This document shows positions 38,001 through 50,000 of a stretch of 64,000 bases of DNA, one piece after another (the stretch's first letter is position 1; each line of letters begins with the position of its first letter). The position numbers and the translations under genes are program-made. This DNA comes from Stegostoma tigrinum (lineage: Eukaryota): NCBI RefSeq assembly GCF_030684315.1, contig NC_081364.1, positions 12,925,286-12,989,285 on the forward strand, read 5' to 3'. The notes beneath the pieces are model-generated. The model ran no database searches and was not told the DNA's origin. It saw only the letters and a list, made by a program, of their open reading frames with translations.

Positions 38001-41000
38001 TCGTGGGGAACCTTATCAAACACCTTGCTGAAGTCCATGTACACCACATCCACTGCTCGACCCTCGTCAACCTGTCTCGTGACTTCCTCAAAGAACTCAA
38101 TAAGATTTGTAAGGCATGACCTGCCCCTCTCAAAGCCATGCTGATTCCCTTTAATCAGGCTATGCTTTTCCAAATAGTCATAAATCCTATCCCTCAGAAT
38201 TCTTTCCAAAACCTTGCTGACCACAGGCGAAAGACTGACTGGTCTGTAATTTCCAGGGATTTCCCTATTCCCTTTCTCGAGAAGGGGAACAAACATTTGC
38301 CTCCCTCCAATCTTCCGGTATGACTCCTGTGGAGAGTGAGGAAGCAAAGATCTTCGCAAGTCCCACTCACCCCTGTGCTTGTATTGACTCTTGATCTCAA
38401 TTTTGTTTTCTATCCTCATTGCTGATTCCTCTCCACATTTCTGTGATCTCCTTCATTCCTACAATTCTTTGAGATTTCTGTGTTCCTCTACGTGCTGCCT
38501 TGTGAACGACCCTGATCTCTCATTTTTCTTTTATTTGCTCATAGGGATGTGGGCGTCATTGGCTAGACCAACATGTATTGCACACCCCTAATTGCCCAGA
38601 GACAACCCACTAAGACCAGGTAAGGGTCGTAGAGCTCCCTCTCTAAAGTATATTAGCAATTCAGATGGAGTTTTCTTTTAATAACAATCAATAATGGTTG
38701 CATGATTCCAAATTTTATCTGCCATCGTGAGATTCGAACCCTTGTTGCCAGAATATTGGCCTGAGGTTCTGGATTGTTAGGCTAGTGACATCACTATTCG
38801 GTCAACAACTTCCCTTCACCTTATATTGCTAAGTCCTCAGCCTAAAGCTGTGCGCTCTGGAACCCCTCTTTATAGTTGACAGATAGAGAACAATAGGATG
38901 CTCCTTAAAACTTGCTCATCATCTACCTTGAACTACACCCACAGGAGGTGTTAAAGACAAATCTTGTCTGATGCCCTTCCACTTTGGGCTAACGAACATT
39001 AAAGCTGCTCGGTAAATACTATTTGCTATTCAGATAGTTGCTGCTGCATGCTCGGGCATCAGCATGTACAGCTGCTGCTACGTAAGAGTTTTTTTTCCTG
39101 TATAATTTTTTGTTCCCCTCTTTATTCTACATTGAGTCAATTTGTGACTTAGCATCTGAATTACATATAAATGACAAGCATTGTGCTGTAATAATCAAAC
39201 TGTTTAAATAATAAACTCGATGAATATGAGGAAGAGGGGAACAGAAGATCATACTGATAGGGCCAGATGAAGAGGGGTAGTGATAAGGTCATGTTCAGCA
39301 TAAGTACTAGCATTGACCTGTTGGGCCAGATGGTCTATTTGCACATTCCTATCTAATTAACAAAGAAAATCAAAGACTGTTTACAGTAAATTTGCAACAA
39401 CAAGCATCCCTCAAACCAGAATAATCCTAACCAACATCTCCAATGCAACTCCCAAACTCTGGATATACACATCAGTAAACCGGAAGACCTTCTGACACAA
39501 ACTTGCGATAGACTGCTGTTGGATACTCTTGTTGCCAGAATATTGGCCTGAGGTTCTGGATTGTTAGTCTAGTGACATCACTATTTGGTCAACAACTTCC
39601 CTTCACCAAAGATTCAATTCAGCACTCAAATGCTGACTTGCAACCTTGCAGGTGGATACATAGAGAGGCATGCCTTGAAGAACTCCAGACAAAGATGGTT
39701 ACACTACTGCCATTAATTAGATCTAGGTCAACGCATTCATAACCCATCGTGGAGGGATGCTCTGATCACTTATTGGGAATGACAGCCACTACTAAACATG
39801 AGAAAGCAGCAAGCACTGTGTGTTTTGATTTACCAGCTCGACCTGGTCCCAGTGCTGGCTAGATACTACAAATTTTACTGCATAATATCAAAAAGCAGGT
39901 TTCACCAAACTTTTCCAATGTTTGCAATTTCTGTCGGAGCCTGCGTGCCTCCTCTTTTGAAGATCTAGAATCATCCTGCTGCTGTTCCAGATATCGCATC
40001 TGCTTCTGTGAAAATAAAACCCGGGGGTAAAGTAAAGGCAAGTTCAACAAATGTAAGTAGGCAACCCCCAATCCAATTGGAAAGCTGAGGAGATGTACAA
40101 ATTACCTTGAGAGTCGAGCACAGCATTTCTGTCTCATTCAGTTCCTTGTTCAAAGATTCCACTCTTGCATTGCGTTCATCCAGGGTGTCCCTCAGATTAT
40201 CAATGATTGTCTGGCGATCCATTTTCTCTTTCTCTGAAACCAAATCACCAACCTATGAGTAAACCATCATCCTCAACCTTACTTGTACAGTCAACACATC
40301 CCATCACAAATAGAGTGATAGCTTGGTTCAGTTGTTGATGCTGTGACATTTGAATCAAGATGTCATGGGTTCAAAATCCACTCTGAAATTAGAGTGCCCA
40401 ATCAAACCTGTTATTTGAACACCATATGAGGAGATATTAAACTGCTGGTCATGCCTCCTTTTGGAATGTATCCCATCAGTGTTTAAATGGACATAAAAGT
40501 TCTGCGGCACTATTCAAAGAGCTGAAAAATTTACTAGTGTGTCCTGGAAAGTACATCTCAACCAAGCTCATTCACTAAAACAGCAAATTAACATGTGCCT
40601 TGACTCATTTTATTGTCAGGAGGATCTTGCTAGACTAACATTGCTGCCAATGCAATTTAGCTGATCATTAGTTGCAAATCTTAACTGCCCTCGGAAATGG
40701 CCTCAAGAATGAATCAGTCTTGGATCCGCTACAATTTCCAATTTATATTAATGTTGCTGTTGGGCAGACAATACCAAACTAGAAAGCCCATTAGATTTGG
40801 AGCAAGTGCTGCAAAAACTTAAAGGCAGCTTGGAAGAATAGCTTATTACTGGAAAGGTGAGAGATAGACTGTTTGTTGGGTGGGGTAGAGGAGGAAAGGG
40901 ATTTTAGACTACAAATAAGGCCAGTCACAAGATAACATCAAATTAATGAGACCAAGGCACACTAAGCTTGATTTATAGAGAGAAAAAATTAAAAAATGAG

Positions 41001-44000: not shown

Positions 44001-47000
44001 AAGAGTACTGAGCATTTGCTGATGACACAAAGTTGGGTGAACTACGTGGGGGATGCTGAGATACTTCGGTGCGGTTTGGACAAATTGCACGAGTAAGCAA
44101 ATGCATGCAAGATTAAGTATAATGTGGATAAAAGTGAGGCTATCCACTTTACTGTTGGTGATTTCTCTCTTGCCAGTAATCAGTACTGTTGACACACACT
44201 ATAAAACACTGTCCCCCTTCACATTGGCATTCTTATGAATTACCCTAATGGGTACAAGTTGAAGAGCTCTGATAATGTGCCTTTTTTAAGCAAACTGTAA
44301 ATGATAAGGGAAAGTCAAATCTAGAAAATTACTTAATTGTGCAAATGGGCCATGTAACCAAAACAAAAACTGAAGATAAATTTAGCAATGACATTAAGTC
44401 AAATTTTTTTAGAAGATTCATCATGGAATGGAATTAACGTGAAGTGGAGATTTTTAAAAAAAACCTGGAGTCATTGAAAAAACAAATCAGAGCACACAAA
44501 TTGTGAATTTTAGAACCGAGTGCAGCATTAGGGTATTTCATTGCATGAGACAATTACAGAAAGCTTACAGTATTCCTTTCCAGACACCAGTCTTGGTAAG
44601 TCACAAAAAAAACCTTGACAAAACCCTGTTGCCATTTGGAATGCAGGTGGAGTGTTAGAAAACTCGCTTGTGCTCACTATTCTTCACATAGCAATGGCTA
44701 AGATGAGGCACCTTCCATCAGAAAGTGTGATCTGGAGTTGCAGTTCACTGCAGCCAGCAACTGGCAGCAGTTTAAGGACCGTTTGATCTGACCTGTCAAT
44801 TACTAATTGATATGCAAGAAACCAAAGTTGAAGTTAAAAAGACAACACTGGGTCACAGAACAGAAATTTTAACTAAAACTGCCTTAAGTATATAAGCCAC
44901 AGCTTAACAATTGCTTTTGGTCAACTTTGCACAGGTAGGGGTGCAGATCTGGACTGTTCTTGTTCATTTTTGCCCCCTTAAATACTGTTTTAGATTAGCA
45001 CGTTTAGAAACTATATCTTTTTCACATTGGAGTAAAAACGGGCATGTCAGATACAGCACGTTTTTACTCTAAATGCATTCACCTGGCAAACTTAATTTAA
45101 ACACCCATTTCGCAATGAATCTCCTCTGATTGTACCAGTGAGCAACATCTATTAAAACACAAAATAAATTCTGACCTTTCTGTAACAGCTGAGACTTGAC
45201 TCTGTCCAATTCATTCTGGAAATTCACATCAAAAAGAAAGAAATCAATCTGACAGATTCATATAGCACAGAACAGAAACAAGAACAGTAAACACCTTTTA
45301 CATCAATTATGAAAAGGTAAATGAAACCCAGCATGTTTAAGAAAAAACTGGGTACTGATAACACGCTACAACAATGTACAAGTGATCTGAATTTAAATTC
45401 AGTTCAATTTGAAATGGCTTAATTTGAATTCTGCAGATAAATTAAAATTATGAATGCGCTTATTGAATTAAAATTCTGATCACATGCTGTTATATAGAAA
45501 TGTTTAATTCAATTTTTAGATAATTTAACTTCTTGAGCAAATAATCCTTCCAATTAAAGAAAGCAAACCATATTGAAATATAGGAACAACATCTATTGGG
45601 ACACTGTAGCAGCTACAAAAGCAATAATTGTGTCAAAACCGGTTTGGCAAAGGGCAATGTTTGAAACATTATTTTCTCTGACCAAATTGCTTATCCCACT
45701 GCATAATATCAAGTATTCATTAGAACTAATTCATAACCCTGGCAGACAACTCATAGGCAAAAGGTCACAGGACTTAAACATTATCTCTGCTTCTCTCCTT
45801 GGATGCTGCCTGGTTTACTGAACAATACCATCATGTTCTGGTCTTATTTCAGCATTGTAGAATCCACACTATTTTAATTTTATGTTCATTCCACAATCTG
45901 TATTCCTTCTGCAAATGTCCAACATTTCTTTTCATCTCTCCACATAGCAAAAACATTGTAGCCTCACTTCCAGTAATAATTATTCAACAAGCCTCCAGTT
46001 AACACATCACGTTTCTGATCTTGACTTTGTGCAACAGACGACCACTAACTTGGCATTTCATTGGCAAAATGAATTGAAAAATTAGTTGAAATTGGAATGA
46101 AGACAAATAACCTTGTTCTGGGAATCAGACAGGCAGTTACAAATTACTTGATGTGTTTCCTAAGATTACAGTTCATTCCTTTGATTAGATTAATCATTAT
46201 TTTCAAAGTCTCAGGGAATTCTAGAAAATTCCAGCCATACCTGAACTCAAGTGAATTGATTTGCAGAACAAAGTAACCTAAATGTTGTAACTTTTCAGGT
46301 TTCTCTCAGTCCTAAACCATCCAAGTGCTCTAAGCCACTGAGTTAATTTGGTTACAGAAGAGTGGCTCCTATTTGTTTACTTTTTAGACTGTGTTTAAAT
46401 CCATAAAAATTGACTTTTTCAATTCAGTGTACAATTAAAAATGAACTTCAGGATAAACATTTCTCTATAGCGGATTATTCCCCAAAATGTCGACCAGACA
46501 TCTGAAAGGAATATGGCCAAGCTGAGCCAAAAGTAGAGCACTGTTTGAATGTGCAGACCACAAATCACACTTTTAAATTGTTTTATATTTGTTTGAGAAC
46601 TACCAAACACAATATACCTGGAACAGTCTATATAGCTCCAAACAGCAAAATACTCAAGACCAGCACCACGTGAGTTACTCTGAAAATCTGATCTGATTAC
46701 TAAAAACTGCAAGCCCGAAGTTGCTGGATTTTCGGTAAAGAGCAGCCTTACCTGGAGAGTTTCGGCATCTAGCACCTGCTCATTCTCGACTATGTTGAAG
46801 AACAGCTTGTTGATGATGTGTTTTGCACTGACCTATTAGAAAGCAAGCACAGCACATTCCTCTGCAGTGTTTCAATTTAAGAATAAATGACAATCCATGA
46901 AAAATAAAGCATACGAAGCTAAGTATTCTGGGTATAATGGAAAAGGAGTCTGTGCTGCGGTACAGAAGTGAAAATTAATTCTGTGGTACCCTATAAAATT

Positions 47001-50000
47001 GATTTGAAGGCATCTATTCCAGCTATTGTACAGATTACCTCTGTAATCCCTTTTGCCACAGATATATTAAGTACACGACTGTCTCTTACCCTGAACTCCA
47101 ATCACTTGCGTGTGATATAGCAACTTAAATGAACAACAAATGATACCAAAATGTCTGCTATGTCTCCACCAATGAGACTGCAATGAAACATGATGATTGA
47201 CAAATTACACAGACAATTCCATGATAAACATAAACATTGAAATTTAACGTGGAAAATTGCAGAGACATTACAGATAAAATATTTCTAGGTCCTTTGATTT
47301 TTCTGGTAGTGTTTGCAATAAACAAGTGCTTGTTGATGGCTATCTCCTCTCAAACAGGCTGCAACCTTGAAATAATCCGCTAATAAAAACTGGATTGAGA
47401 ACATTTGATTCAAGAAATGCAAAATGTGATCTAGGATAGGGTGAGGTAAGTCAGCATTGAGAAACTTTTCTATTTTACACACATTGAAAGGCTCGGTCTA
47501 GCACAGTAAAACAGAGTAAAATCTCCTGTGCTCAGGCTCAAAAATGCTCGTTAGCCCTGAAAAGCAAATCCTTCAACAGTGAGACAATTGGGCGAACAAA
47601 AACAAAGCTTTTGGAAAAGCTCAGCAGGTCTGGCAGCATCAGTGAAGGCGAAGATAGAGTTAATGTTTTGGGTCCGATGACCTTTCCTCACAACAGAGTA
47701 TTTATTAGCGGGTTATTCCAAGGTTGCAGCCTGTTTGAGAGGAGATAGCCATCGCCAGGCACTTGTTTATTGCAAACACTACCAGGAAAATCAAAGGACC
47801 TAGAAATATACTGTGATGTCTCTGCAATTTTCCAGGTTAAATTTCAACGTTTATGTTTATCATGGAATTGTCTGCGTAATAGAGACTATTACATCATTTC
47901 CTTGTAGATGGCAGAGAGGGTATAGTCTGTTGAACAGTGAGACACTTGCTGCAGAACTCCCATCCTTTGACCTGCAGCTGTAGCCATAATATTGATGTGA
48001 TGAGTTCAGTTCCATTTTTACTCAGTGGTAACTCCATGGGATGTTGATGGTGAGGGGATTCAGTCATGATAATGCCACTGAATGCCAGAGTTCTGAGGAA
48101 GGGTCACCGGACCCGAAACTTTAACTCTGTTTTCACCTTCACAGATGCTGCCAGACCTGCTGAGCTTTTCCAGCAGCTTTGTTTTTGTTCTTGATTTACA
48201 GCATCTGCAGATCTTTTGGTTTTTATTTAGACAATTTGGTGACACTGGTTGCAAACTGTCAGTGGGAGATTTGTAAGCAACACTTGTAATGTAACTTTCT
48301 ACTTCCTTCTCTGTCAGACCCTTACAGCCACCAGAAACTAGTAATATTGGTGGCAAACAAATGCCTGGTAATGGCTATCTCCAACAAGAGATAATCTAGC
48401 CATTGCCTCTTGGCATTCAATGGCATTATCATGACTGAATGTCCTCACCATCAACATCCTGTGGAGTTACCACAGAGTAAAAACACAACTGAACTCATCA
48501 CATCAATATTATGGCTGCGGATCAAAGGATGAGAGTTCTACAGCAAGTGCCTCACTTTTCAACAGACTATAGCCTCTCTGCCATCTACAAGGAAATGATG
48601 TAATAGTATCCACATGTCTGGATGAATGTGTCACCAACAACGCTGAAGCAGCTCAATACAATCCAGACAAAGGCAGCCCATTTGATCCACATCCCATCGA
48701 TCAATTTAAACATTCATTTCCTCCACTGCTGACTTAGTGGCAGCAGTGGGCATCGTTTACAAGATGAACTGCAGCAATTCATACATGGTTCTTAAAGGGG
48801 TTGATAGGGTAAATGAAAAGCTGTTTTCCCTGATGGAAGAGTCTGGAAACAGAGTGCATGGCCACAGAATTAAGGGGGGAGGGGTGCAATTTAAGACTGA
48901 GATAGGGAGGAATATATTCTTTTAAAGGGTTGAATATTTGCGAAGCTCCTTCCCAGAGAGATGTCAGGATAGAGACCTTCTGTATATTTGAGGCTGAAAT
49001 ACGTAGATCAGTCAGGGAATCAAGGGTTATAGGAAAGGGGAGGGAAATGGATGTGGGGAATGCTGAATAGCCTACAGAAGGCGGAGGAGGCTCAAGCGGC
49101 TGAATGGCCTATTCCTGTTCTTGTTTCTTATGATCTTATGGTCTCCCCTGTCAGCACCTTCCAAACTCATGATTTCTACCACCTAGCAGCAGCAGGGAAA
49201 ATGATGCAAATTCCCATCCAAGCAACACACTATGCTGACTTGGGACTATAATCGCTGTTATTTTGCTGTTTTGTGCTAAAAAATCTAGAACTCCCTTCCG
49301 AACAGCTCACTGTGTGGATCTAAACCTGATGAATTCTACTGGCTTAAAATGGTCGCAGCCCATCATCACCTTACGAAGGGTAGCTAGAAATATGTCATAA
49401 ACAATGGCCGTGCTAACAATACTCATATGGTTATCCTGAACTAACAAGAAAAATGGACTTCCAGTTTGGTCTGGCCTTGACTTCTGGGTTCTTAGCGAAG
49501 AAAGAGGACTGCTTTCAATTTACCTTCACTGCAGTTTTGAATTTTCTAACTGTTTTTGCTTTATTAAAAATGTAATTTAAAAGTATAAAGGCGAAAATGC
49601 AATTGAGTCACTAGCTTCGCTGCTGTCAAGATATTTGAAAACATATCCCCACTAAGCTAAAAAGGAATATGCCTAAAATTATATATTACATATGCTTGAA
49701 ACAGAATGCATTGTTACATTTGTCTCATTTGTATTTTTAAAATAACAACTATTTCTAATTTAGTCTTTATTTTCAAAGCAACATTCTGATTAAGACAAAC
49801 AGATAGCCAATTATCAAACCTCTGCCCTTTGAGATAGGACACATTCAGAAAATGGAGTTCACAGAATCCCTACAGTGTGGAAACGGGTCCTTCGGTGCAA
49901 CAAGTCCACACCCACCCTCAAAACAGCATCCCACCCAGACCCAAACCCATTCCCCCTACACGTTCCTGCATTTTCCATTGTTAACACACCTAATCTACAC

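What the first reader, a model, noticed from the sequence alone, without database searches (positions are those of the whole stretch)
47204..48610. Palindromic retroelement that has captured inverted copies of both of its flanks
Seen: a short inverted-arm element (left arm about 47595-47692, right arm about 48090-48225 with hammerhead motif ctgaggaagggtcaccggacccgaaa, imperfect TSD agacaatt(g/t)gg(c/t)ga near 47582 and 48229) is split at its centre by about 390 bp. That insert is an inverted copy of 47204-47391 (left flank) joined directly to an inverted copy of 48407-48610 (right flank). Each source block is about 190-205 bp long and lies about 180-200 bp from the insertion site, so the layout is nearly symmetric. 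Inference: a single event, either template jumping during Penelope-type insertion or repair of a break at the palindrome centre using both neighbours. The roughly nucleosome-sized spacing could be chance. The result is three competing long duplexes in the TRAIP pre-mRNA about 370 nt upstream of coding exon 3.
Basis: partly seen in the sequence, partly recalled or inferred. Interest (0 to 1): 0.7.

Follow-up and report, generated by a model that had tools for sequence, protein, structure and literature searches.

The report
Jumping-gene insertion copied both its flanks
An old Penelope-type jumping-gene insertion in an intron holds, between its two back-to-back halves, backwards copies of about 190 and 205 bases from both of its neighbours, likely made when both cut DNA ends folded back and copied their own strand before being joined, a two-sided form of a scar known one-sidedly from human LINE-1.

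Summary
A head-to-head Penelope-type pair of pseudo-LTR arms (tail on one side, 14-bp target duplication) encloses inverted copies of both flanks, which are the best genome-wide matches (91%/89% against at most 77%). The central junction is present in short-read contigs of this organism and of a second organism; a third, more distant organism appears to have the empty site. Seven sister insertions carry local copies, all one-sided, from about 0.1-2.8 kb away, and as diverged as their arms (rho 0.93, n=8), so capture most likely happened at insertion. The ~190-bp 'nucleosome' spacing is not a family rule. Only two of the three RNA duplexes form together. Best mechanism: both cDNA-extended ends snapped back on their own strand, then joined nearly blunt. 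One-sided fold-back is published for L1 and R2, and this scan has noted one-sided Penelope captures many times, also in this genome; I found no two-sided case in 5 answered look-ups of earlier notes or 7 paper searches. A long shot: the B-A junction is a copied intron lariat.

The parts
46752..46832 (-). Host coding exon (third coding exon of a RING-finger gene; the name TRAIP is recalled); the structure lies in the intron upstream of it
   Evidence: AG..GT borders and open frame; earlier exons at about 52904-52809 (RING fragment, Pfam zf-RING_11 E 1.4e-5, below cut-off) and about 50830-50770
47204..47391 (+). Source block A (left flank, single-copy apart from its copy)
47582..47595 (+). Target-site duplication, left copy
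   Evidence: 12 of 14 identical to right copy
47596..47694 (-). Short (tail-less) Penelope pseudo-LTR arm, 5' end facing the centre, intact to about position 2 of the arm
47697..47880 (-). A': inverted copy of the left flank, next to the left arm
   Evidence: 12 substitutions in 181 columns
47880..47882 (.). Central A'|B' junction, at most 1 nt of microhomology
   Evidence: spanned by contigs of runs X1 and X10
47882..48088 (-). B': inverted copy of the right flank, next to the right arm; 2-nt microhomology with the arm end
   Evidence: 17 substitutions in 200 columns; junction
48089..48228 (+). Long arm: starts at the inferred transcription start of the pseudo-LTR, holds a minimal hammerhead-like motif (about 48089-48131) and a ~38-nt one-sided tail (about 48191-48228)
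   Evidence: Rfam blank
48229..48242 (+). Target-site duplication, right copy
48407..48610 (+). Source block B (right flank; partly an old repeat whose other copies are at most 77% like the insert)

Best explanation
This is one Penelope-type insertion of two head-to-head arms whose centre holds inverted copies of both flanks, likely made in the same event when each cDNA-extended DNA end folded back and copied its own flank before the two ends were joined. Steps: (1) inferred from the 14-bp duplication and from in vitro work on an anole Penelope protein: the endonuclease cuts both strands; (2) inferred: both 3' ends prime reverse transcription, one at the tail start and one about 38 nt inside, and both run to the RNA 5' end; (3) inferred: the two ends stay unjoined, their 5' strands are resected by at least 370-380 nt, and each cDNA 3' end anneals by a few bases to its own single-stranded flank about 300-320 nt back and is extended by about 190-205 nt; (4) inferred: the new strands are displaced and joined almost blunt, and gaps are filled. 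Which polymerase copied the flanks (element reverse transcriptase or a host repair polymerase) is untested. The near-equal far ends (378/368 bp) may mark equal resection on both sides, which is a guess from one case.
For: Shown: order and orientation are the ones same-side fold-back predicts (left copy beside left arm, right copy beside right arm). One target duplication encloses everything. A 2540-nt contig of organism C is collinear across the site with 563 nt where the window has 567 nt of flank, so it has room for neither arms nor insert (record 16). Both arms reach the inferred RNA start, as do only 14 of 49 directly joined pairs, so no centre erosion is seen. Copy-source divergence follows arm-arm divergence in 8 capture loci (Spearman 0.93, p 0.0009; paired Wilcoxon p 0.55; pooled over the 7 sister loci 89/760 against 65/625, p 0.49). 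5 of 7 sister captures are inverted. Known: the anole element cuts and extends both strands and starts at two sites that define the tail (PMC11167929, main text read); L1 fold-back duplications of 52-220 bp (PMC10191854, section 11 read); R2 full-length cDNA ends snap back on nearby target DNA (PMC11371274, passages); yeast fold-back with displacement and end joining (PMC11724301, abstract and passages).
Against: At this locus the copies look slightly younger than the arms: non-CpG 24/369 against 9/93 pairwise (p 0.27), and 24/738 against 13/222 per copy against the family majority (p 0.11). Microhomology at the arm junctions is only 2 nt on the right and imperfect on the left. 2 of 7 sister captures are direct, so invasion of the other strand also occurs. 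No second two-sided case was found among 171 other focal loci, 551 arm 5' ends in 1.27 Mb or 27 pattern-selected loci. The symmetry is not explained by any tested step. The part of organism C's contig over block A did not align at 85%, so the empty site rests on length and collinearity. A target duplication is clear by eye in only 4 of the 7 sister loci. The correlation could partly reflect regional mutation rates.
Confidence: 0.62

Rival explanations
1. The arms were first joined directly; a later break at the centre of the palindrome was repaired by fold-back on both sides.
For: Copies at this locus are nominally less diverged than the arms (not significant). Most head-to-head copies are near-perfect palindromes with centres of 0-14 nt, which established knowledge says are fragile. 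An earlier unchecked note (e1-8654215) reads another capture in this genome this way.
Against: Both arms are intact to the inferred start. Across 8 loci the copies are as old as the arms. The junction is shared with organism B (about 79/1399 differences over the listed pieces), and copies differ by 29/381, so the window for a second event is narrow.
Confidence: 0.17
2. One growing end made the whole insert by serial template switches (for example the right cDNA copied B, jumped to A, then joined the left arm), on looped DNA or on the host's linear pre-mRNA.
For: Both blocks have the strand that a right-hand cDNA would get from the minus-strand pre-mRNA. Co-insertion of local pre-mRNA was seen once for L1 (PMC10191854, section 11). 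Direct captures (L114, L274) show that strand invasion happens.
Against: The B-to-A jump has at most 1 nt of microhomology; it needs a jump across the break to a point mirror-symmetric to the first one; the resected strand would not be available as template.
Confidence: 0.12
3. The B-A junction existed in the template: the reverse transcriptase jumped onto an intron lariat of the host gene and read through its branch point.
For: On the transcribed strand block A ends at a TAAT with the first AG (a CAG) 27 nt downstream, and a GT lies 3 nt outside the end of block B; such a branch-like site falls within 3 positions in 1.7% of window positions, a GT within 4 positions in 22%, jointly about 0.4% (motifs chosen after seeing the data). 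One switch plus one join would give the whole insert.
Against: The donor (GTGGAT) is poor against the gene's real donors. The junction lacks the first G of the donor instead of showing a mismatch at the branch A, whereas bypass from the 2' arm gave mostly single mismatches and 10% deletions with M-MLV enzyme (PMC5399748, passages). It does not explain why the insertion site sits in the middle of the loop. No RNA data.
Confidence: 0.06
4. Assembly artefact, or the insert derives from unrelated repeat copies.
For: Block B is partly a repeat with hundreds of candidates.
Against: Copies differ from their sources by 7-9%; the junction is in contigs of two organisms; flanks match far better than any other place.
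Confidence: 0.01

Closest known systems
Inverted-pLTR insertions with one-sided 30-40 nt tail of endonuclease-bearing Penelope-like elements (PMC3846280 passages; PMC8557442 passages; PMC11167929 main text)
   Same: Head-to-head arms, tail on one arm, one target duplication, TATA and initiator-like start, hammerhead-like motif, GIY-YIG-like reading frame with upstream CX4CX2C in longer copies
   Different: The passages read describe capture of host DNA between pLTRs but not copies of the insertion's own two flanks
L1 fold-back inversion / local inverted duplication (PMC10191854 section 11: 4 events, 52-220 bp; bioRxiv 10.1101/2024.12.14.628481 passages) and L1 templated insertions (bioRxiv 10.1101/2024.08.27.596794 passages: 22 events, mostly <250 bp, within 15 bp of the site)
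   Same: Inverted copy of target-flanking DNA of similar length inside a target duplication; self-annealing of a resected end proposed
   Different: Described one-sided, with small hairpins or templates next to the site; here both ends folded back, after cDNA synthesis, with loops of about 300 nt
Snap-back 5' junctions of R2-protein insertions (PMC11371274 passages)
   Same: Full-length cDNA 3' end primes further synthesis on nearby target DNA before joining
   Different: One cDNA end, engineered system in human cells, site-specific target
Fold-back templated insertions at yeast double-strand breaks (PMC11724301 abstract and passages)
   Same: Hairpin priming, displacement of the new strand, end joining
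   Different: Mostly 5-34 bp, 41-nt loop, one end, no retroelement

Membership tests
Endonuclease-bearing Penelope-like element (Neptune/Nematis type) | Inverted pLTR arrangement with a 30-40 nt tail on one arm only | tested here: met
   Right arm about 38 nt longer than left; same pattern in most two-arm copies
Endonuclease-bearing Penelope-like element (Neptune/Nematis type) | Target-site duplication around the whole unit | tested here: met
   14 bp, 12 identical; family mostly 12-15 bp
Endonuclease-bearing Penelope-like element (Neptune/Nematis type) | C-terminal GIY-YIG endonuclease just upstream of the pLTR, with CX2-5CXXC motif before it | tested here: inconclusive
   Longer copy L039 shows the motifs by eye; Pfam GIY-YIG only E 0.21, 12.3 bits, below the 22.6 cut-off; blank on the longer piece
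Endonuclease-bearing Penelope-like element (Neptune/Nematis type) | Telomerase-like reverse transcriptase, placed by phylogeny | not tested
   No full-length copy was sought
Endonuclease-bearing Penelope-like element (Neptune/Nematis type) | Minimal hammerhead ribozyme in the pLTR | tested here: inconclusive
   Core, stem II and stem I visible in the right arm; Rfam 0 matches; this copy has T where many sister copies have the G of the short palindrome; cleavage not testable
Fold-back inverted duplication at a retrotransposon target site (L1/R2 type) | Inverted copy of flank DNA inside the target duplication, source retained | tested here: met
Fold-back inverted duplication at a retrotransposon target site (L1/R2 type) | Microhomology at the fold-back junction | tested here: inconclusive
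   2 nt on the right, imperfect on the left; 4-5 nt in L282 and L274
Fold-back inverted duplication at a retrotransposon target site (L1/R2 type) | Formed in the same event as the insertion | tested here: inconclusive
   Supported across 8 loci; at this locus not significant either way
Self-propagating palindromic element (MITE/retrozyme) carrying cargo | The unit with its cargo occurs in further copies | tested here: not met
   The 391-bp insert matches only itself and its two flanks in full; arm pairs differ in length and centre from copy to copy
Reverse-transcribed intron lariat | Branch A joined to GT of a 5' splice site, usually with a mismatch at the branch | tested here: inconclusive
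   Branch-like TAAT and CAG 27 nt on; weak donor; first G missing

The most novel reading that the evidence does not exclude
The insert is a fossil intron lariat: the Penelope reverse transcriptase left its own RNA, jumped onto a lariat of the host intron still at the locus, read through the 2'-5' branch and wrote the branch junction into the germ line.
Probability: 0.06. Interest if true: 0.8.

Novelty: new variant of a known kind. Interest (0 to 1): 0.38.

Why it matters
How Penelope-like elements finish insertion is open (PMC11167929 says the steps after priming are not validated). A centre that holds copies of both flanks, each next to its own arm, is the clearest kind of fossil evidence that both target ends are extended with cDNA and are free, resected break ends at the same moment. 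It gives a testable prediction for cell assays. For the host it adds two predicted ~180-bp hairpins to an intron 370 nt upstream of an exon, with no evidence of function. As a single rare scar of a kind already known one-sidedly, it is of moderate interest.

Tried and rejected
Rfam search of 46500-49500: nothing. PDB sequence search with two host exons: nothing, so the gene name stays recalled. No RNA holder listed among sequencing runs, so editing and splicing were not examined. A second look at reads of other organisms over the left flank was not obtained, so arms-without-insert in organism D and the layout in organism B stay open. Short centres (8-60 nt, 17 loci) showed no flank templating beyond shuffles, except L201 whose match is element sequence. 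Apparent captures rejected: L087 and L209 (two independent insertions), L065, L176, L217 (element-derived centres), L200, L007, L017, L025, L086 (neighbouring repeats), L243 (insertion into an older duplication), L133, L261 (repeat matches); L055 (24 bp, E 2e-6) left undecided and not counted. L285 and L287 have non-element centres with no source within 5 kb. Back-splicing as origin of the B-A junction rejected: no GT after 47204 and no AG before 48610 on the transcribed strand. Gene conversion in organism A considered for four positions where organism B differs from both copies; not needed (one is a CpG site, three can be changes in B). Nucleosome spacing rejected as a family rule. Literature: 7 answered searches showed no two-sided flank copy at a retroelement insertion; supplements of PMC10191854 and of the two bioRxiv L1 papers were not seen and may hold such cases.

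Full report
1. Observation. The layout A - x - TSD - left arm - A' - B' - right arm - TSD - y - B is in the sequence. A' (47697-47880) is the reverse complement of 47204-47391 (12 substitutions in 181 columns), B' (47882-48088) of 48407-48610 (17 in 200), and the arms differ at 11 of 99. The target duplication is 47582-47595 / 48229-48242, 12 of 14 identical. In a search of the own 3.2-Gb genome with the insert, the two flanks were the best matches (E 1e-69 and 5e-69); the other 37 listed places matched only the B part, at 71-77% (40 of 874 candidates scored).

2. Reads. Four runs were laid on 46700-49100. A contig of run X1 (same organism, possibly the assembly's own sample) spans the central junction without a difference. 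A contig of organism B (X10) also crosses it, with 7 differences in 176 bases, so the junction predates the split of A and B. A 2540-nt contig of organism C (X16) aligns to 46744-47014, then 563 nt later to 48229-48348, then to block B; the window has 567 nt between 47014 and the first duplication copy, so C most likely has the empty site (its block A did not align at 85%). Differences over the listed pieces are about 79/1399 for B and 67/584 for C, and the copies differ from their sources by 29/381, which places the event between the two splits. Organism D (X18) gave no informative piece.

3. What the element is. The arm has at least 1697 candidates in the genome. Longer copies share sequence upstream of the arm that encodes a GIY-YIG-like end with a CX4CX2C motif before it (Pfam support weak, E 0.21; none), which fits the Neptune/Nematis type as described in PMC8557442 (passages). 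A TATA-like box lies about 30 nt before TCAGTT, and most short arms begin at that AGTT, so they are likely complete copies of a transcript starting there (inference; compare PMC3846280, passages). One arm has the tail and the other not, matching the two start sites of reverse transcription and the cutting and extension of both strands shown in vitro for the anole element (PMC11167929, main text read). So the palindrome is a known insertion outcome, not a family of its own.

4. How common is flank capture. Of 180 search loci, 172 were non-redundant (one more duplicate, L065 = L194, was seen later); 67 rows had two arms, and 57 of these had 0-14 nt of non-element centre. Among the 171 loci other than the window one clear capture appeared: L024/L114, a direct copy of about 100 bp from about 830 bp away whose only two matches in the genome are itself and that flank. 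A second screen over 211 loci (1.27 Mb, 714 arms of two main families, 551 with intact 5' ends) found only the window and L114. Four pattern searches for arm pairs with centres of 375-405, 60-90, 180-210 and 100-130 nt gave 29 places, 27 of which were fetched. Eight had a non-element centre of 50 bp or more; six of these had a local source: inverted in L279 (about 1.3 kb away), L282 (about 0.12 kb), L284 (0.7 kb), L289 (1.2 kb), L268 (1.0 kb, only 57 of 181 bp explained), direct in L274 (2.8 kb). All seven sister captures are one-sided. There is no preference for about 190 bp. Only four 30-nt size windows and exact-match arm ends were searched, so this is a small sample.

5. Timing. For the seven sister loci, non-CpG copy-source divergence is 89/760 and arm-arm divergence 65/625 (p 0.49); with the window, the two correlate (rho 0.93, p 0.0009, n = 8). 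At the window itself the copies are nominally younger (24/369 against 9/93, p 0.27; against the family majority p 0.11). Capture at insertion is favoured for the class; for this locus a slightly later event cannot be excluded. An earlier unchecked note (e1-8654215) reached the opposite view for another locus of this genome.

6. Mechanism. Each copy lies next to the arm of its own side and is the complement of the strand on which that arm's cDNA grew. That is what fold-back on a resected end gives. The loops would be 303 nt (left) and about 320 nt (right), the copies about 190 and 205 nt, and their far ends 378 and 368 bp from the duplication. The right junction shares 2 nt with the arm end, the left is imperfect, the centre shares at most 1 nt. 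All enzymatic steps are inferred. Published parallels: L1 fold-back duplications of 52-220 bp in 4 events, 0.4% (PMC10191854, section 11 read); self-annealing of resected L1-made ends (10.1101/2024.12.14.628481, passages); L1 templated insertions (10.1101/2024.08.27.596794, passages; lead from notes e1-9593129 and e1-9913065); R2 snap-back after full-length cDNA (PMC11371274, passages); yeast fold-back (PMC11724301, abstract and passages). None of the passages read describes both flanks copied in one event; supplements were not seen.

7. The long shot. Read on the bottom strand the insert is B followed by A, the junction that a circle of the empty site would have, and on the strand a pre-mRNA template would give. 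Back-splice signals are absent. A lariat is not excluded: block A ends at a branch-like TAAT with the first AG 27 nt on, and a GT lies just outside block B (joint chance about 0.4% in this window, after the fact). Against it: a weak donor, and loss of the donor's G rather than a mismatch at the branch A (PMC5399748, passages). I give it 6%.

8. Consequence for the host. The structure lies in the intron upstream of exon 46752-46832 of a minus-strand RING-finger gene (name TRAIP recalled). In the predicted fold of 47190-48630 the two flank hairpins form together (172 and 189 bp) and the arm-arm duplex does not (duplex energies -282, -330 and -157 kcal/mol). No expression, editing or splicing data were available.

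9. Verdict. Real; a two-sided variant of a known repair scar in a known element class. This scan has noted one-sided Penelope captures many times, at least six in this genome (unchecked notes; e1-8654333 may be the same place as my L114), and none two-sided in the look-ups made. Interest 0.38.

Noticed in passing
window 47838-48484, run X10 record 12 and record 11: In organism B one contig reads right arm end - y - B - A, and the A' contig has about 1.6 times single-copy depth while source A is uncovered: either an inversion between B' and B with homogenised A copies, or a short-read assembly collapse.
   Followed up: partly
L222:1477-1501, L204:1478-1501, L013, L023, L093: Short centres often consist of repeated re-copies of the arm's own 5' end (for example several tandem CAGAAC-like units in L222), suggesting iterative priming at the RNA or cDNA end.
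   Followed up: partly
L286:1380-1850; L280, L283, L288: Centres made of further arms: L286 is a four-arm nested palindrome with near-identical inner copies inside one target duplication.
   Followed up: no
L295:4808-5206 (L274): A 398-bp direct capture from 2.8 kb away that duplicates a tRNA-like SINE with its unique flank; 5-nt microhomology with the arm start.
   Followed up: partly
L243:263-392 and 1382-1511: Local duplication with an arm of the second Penelope family inserted in one copy (12-bp duplication).
   Followed up: partly
window 48338-48382 and 47303-47347: 45-bp 73% direct similarity between y and block A, probably two old fragments of one repeat; it explains a weak extra inverted hit to the insert.
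   Followed up: no
window 38738-38820 and 39525-39607: 83-bp direct duplication, 96% identical, of sequence not seen in other fetched loci.
   Followed up: no
L248:6715-10000, L082:1-1263, L032:1422-2405: Long minisatellite arrays (periods of about 34, 26 and 40 bp) beside element copies.
   Followed up: no
1.27 Mb of fetched loci: A second abundant hammerhead-bearing palindromic family (227 arms) coexists with this one (437 arms).
   Followed up: partly
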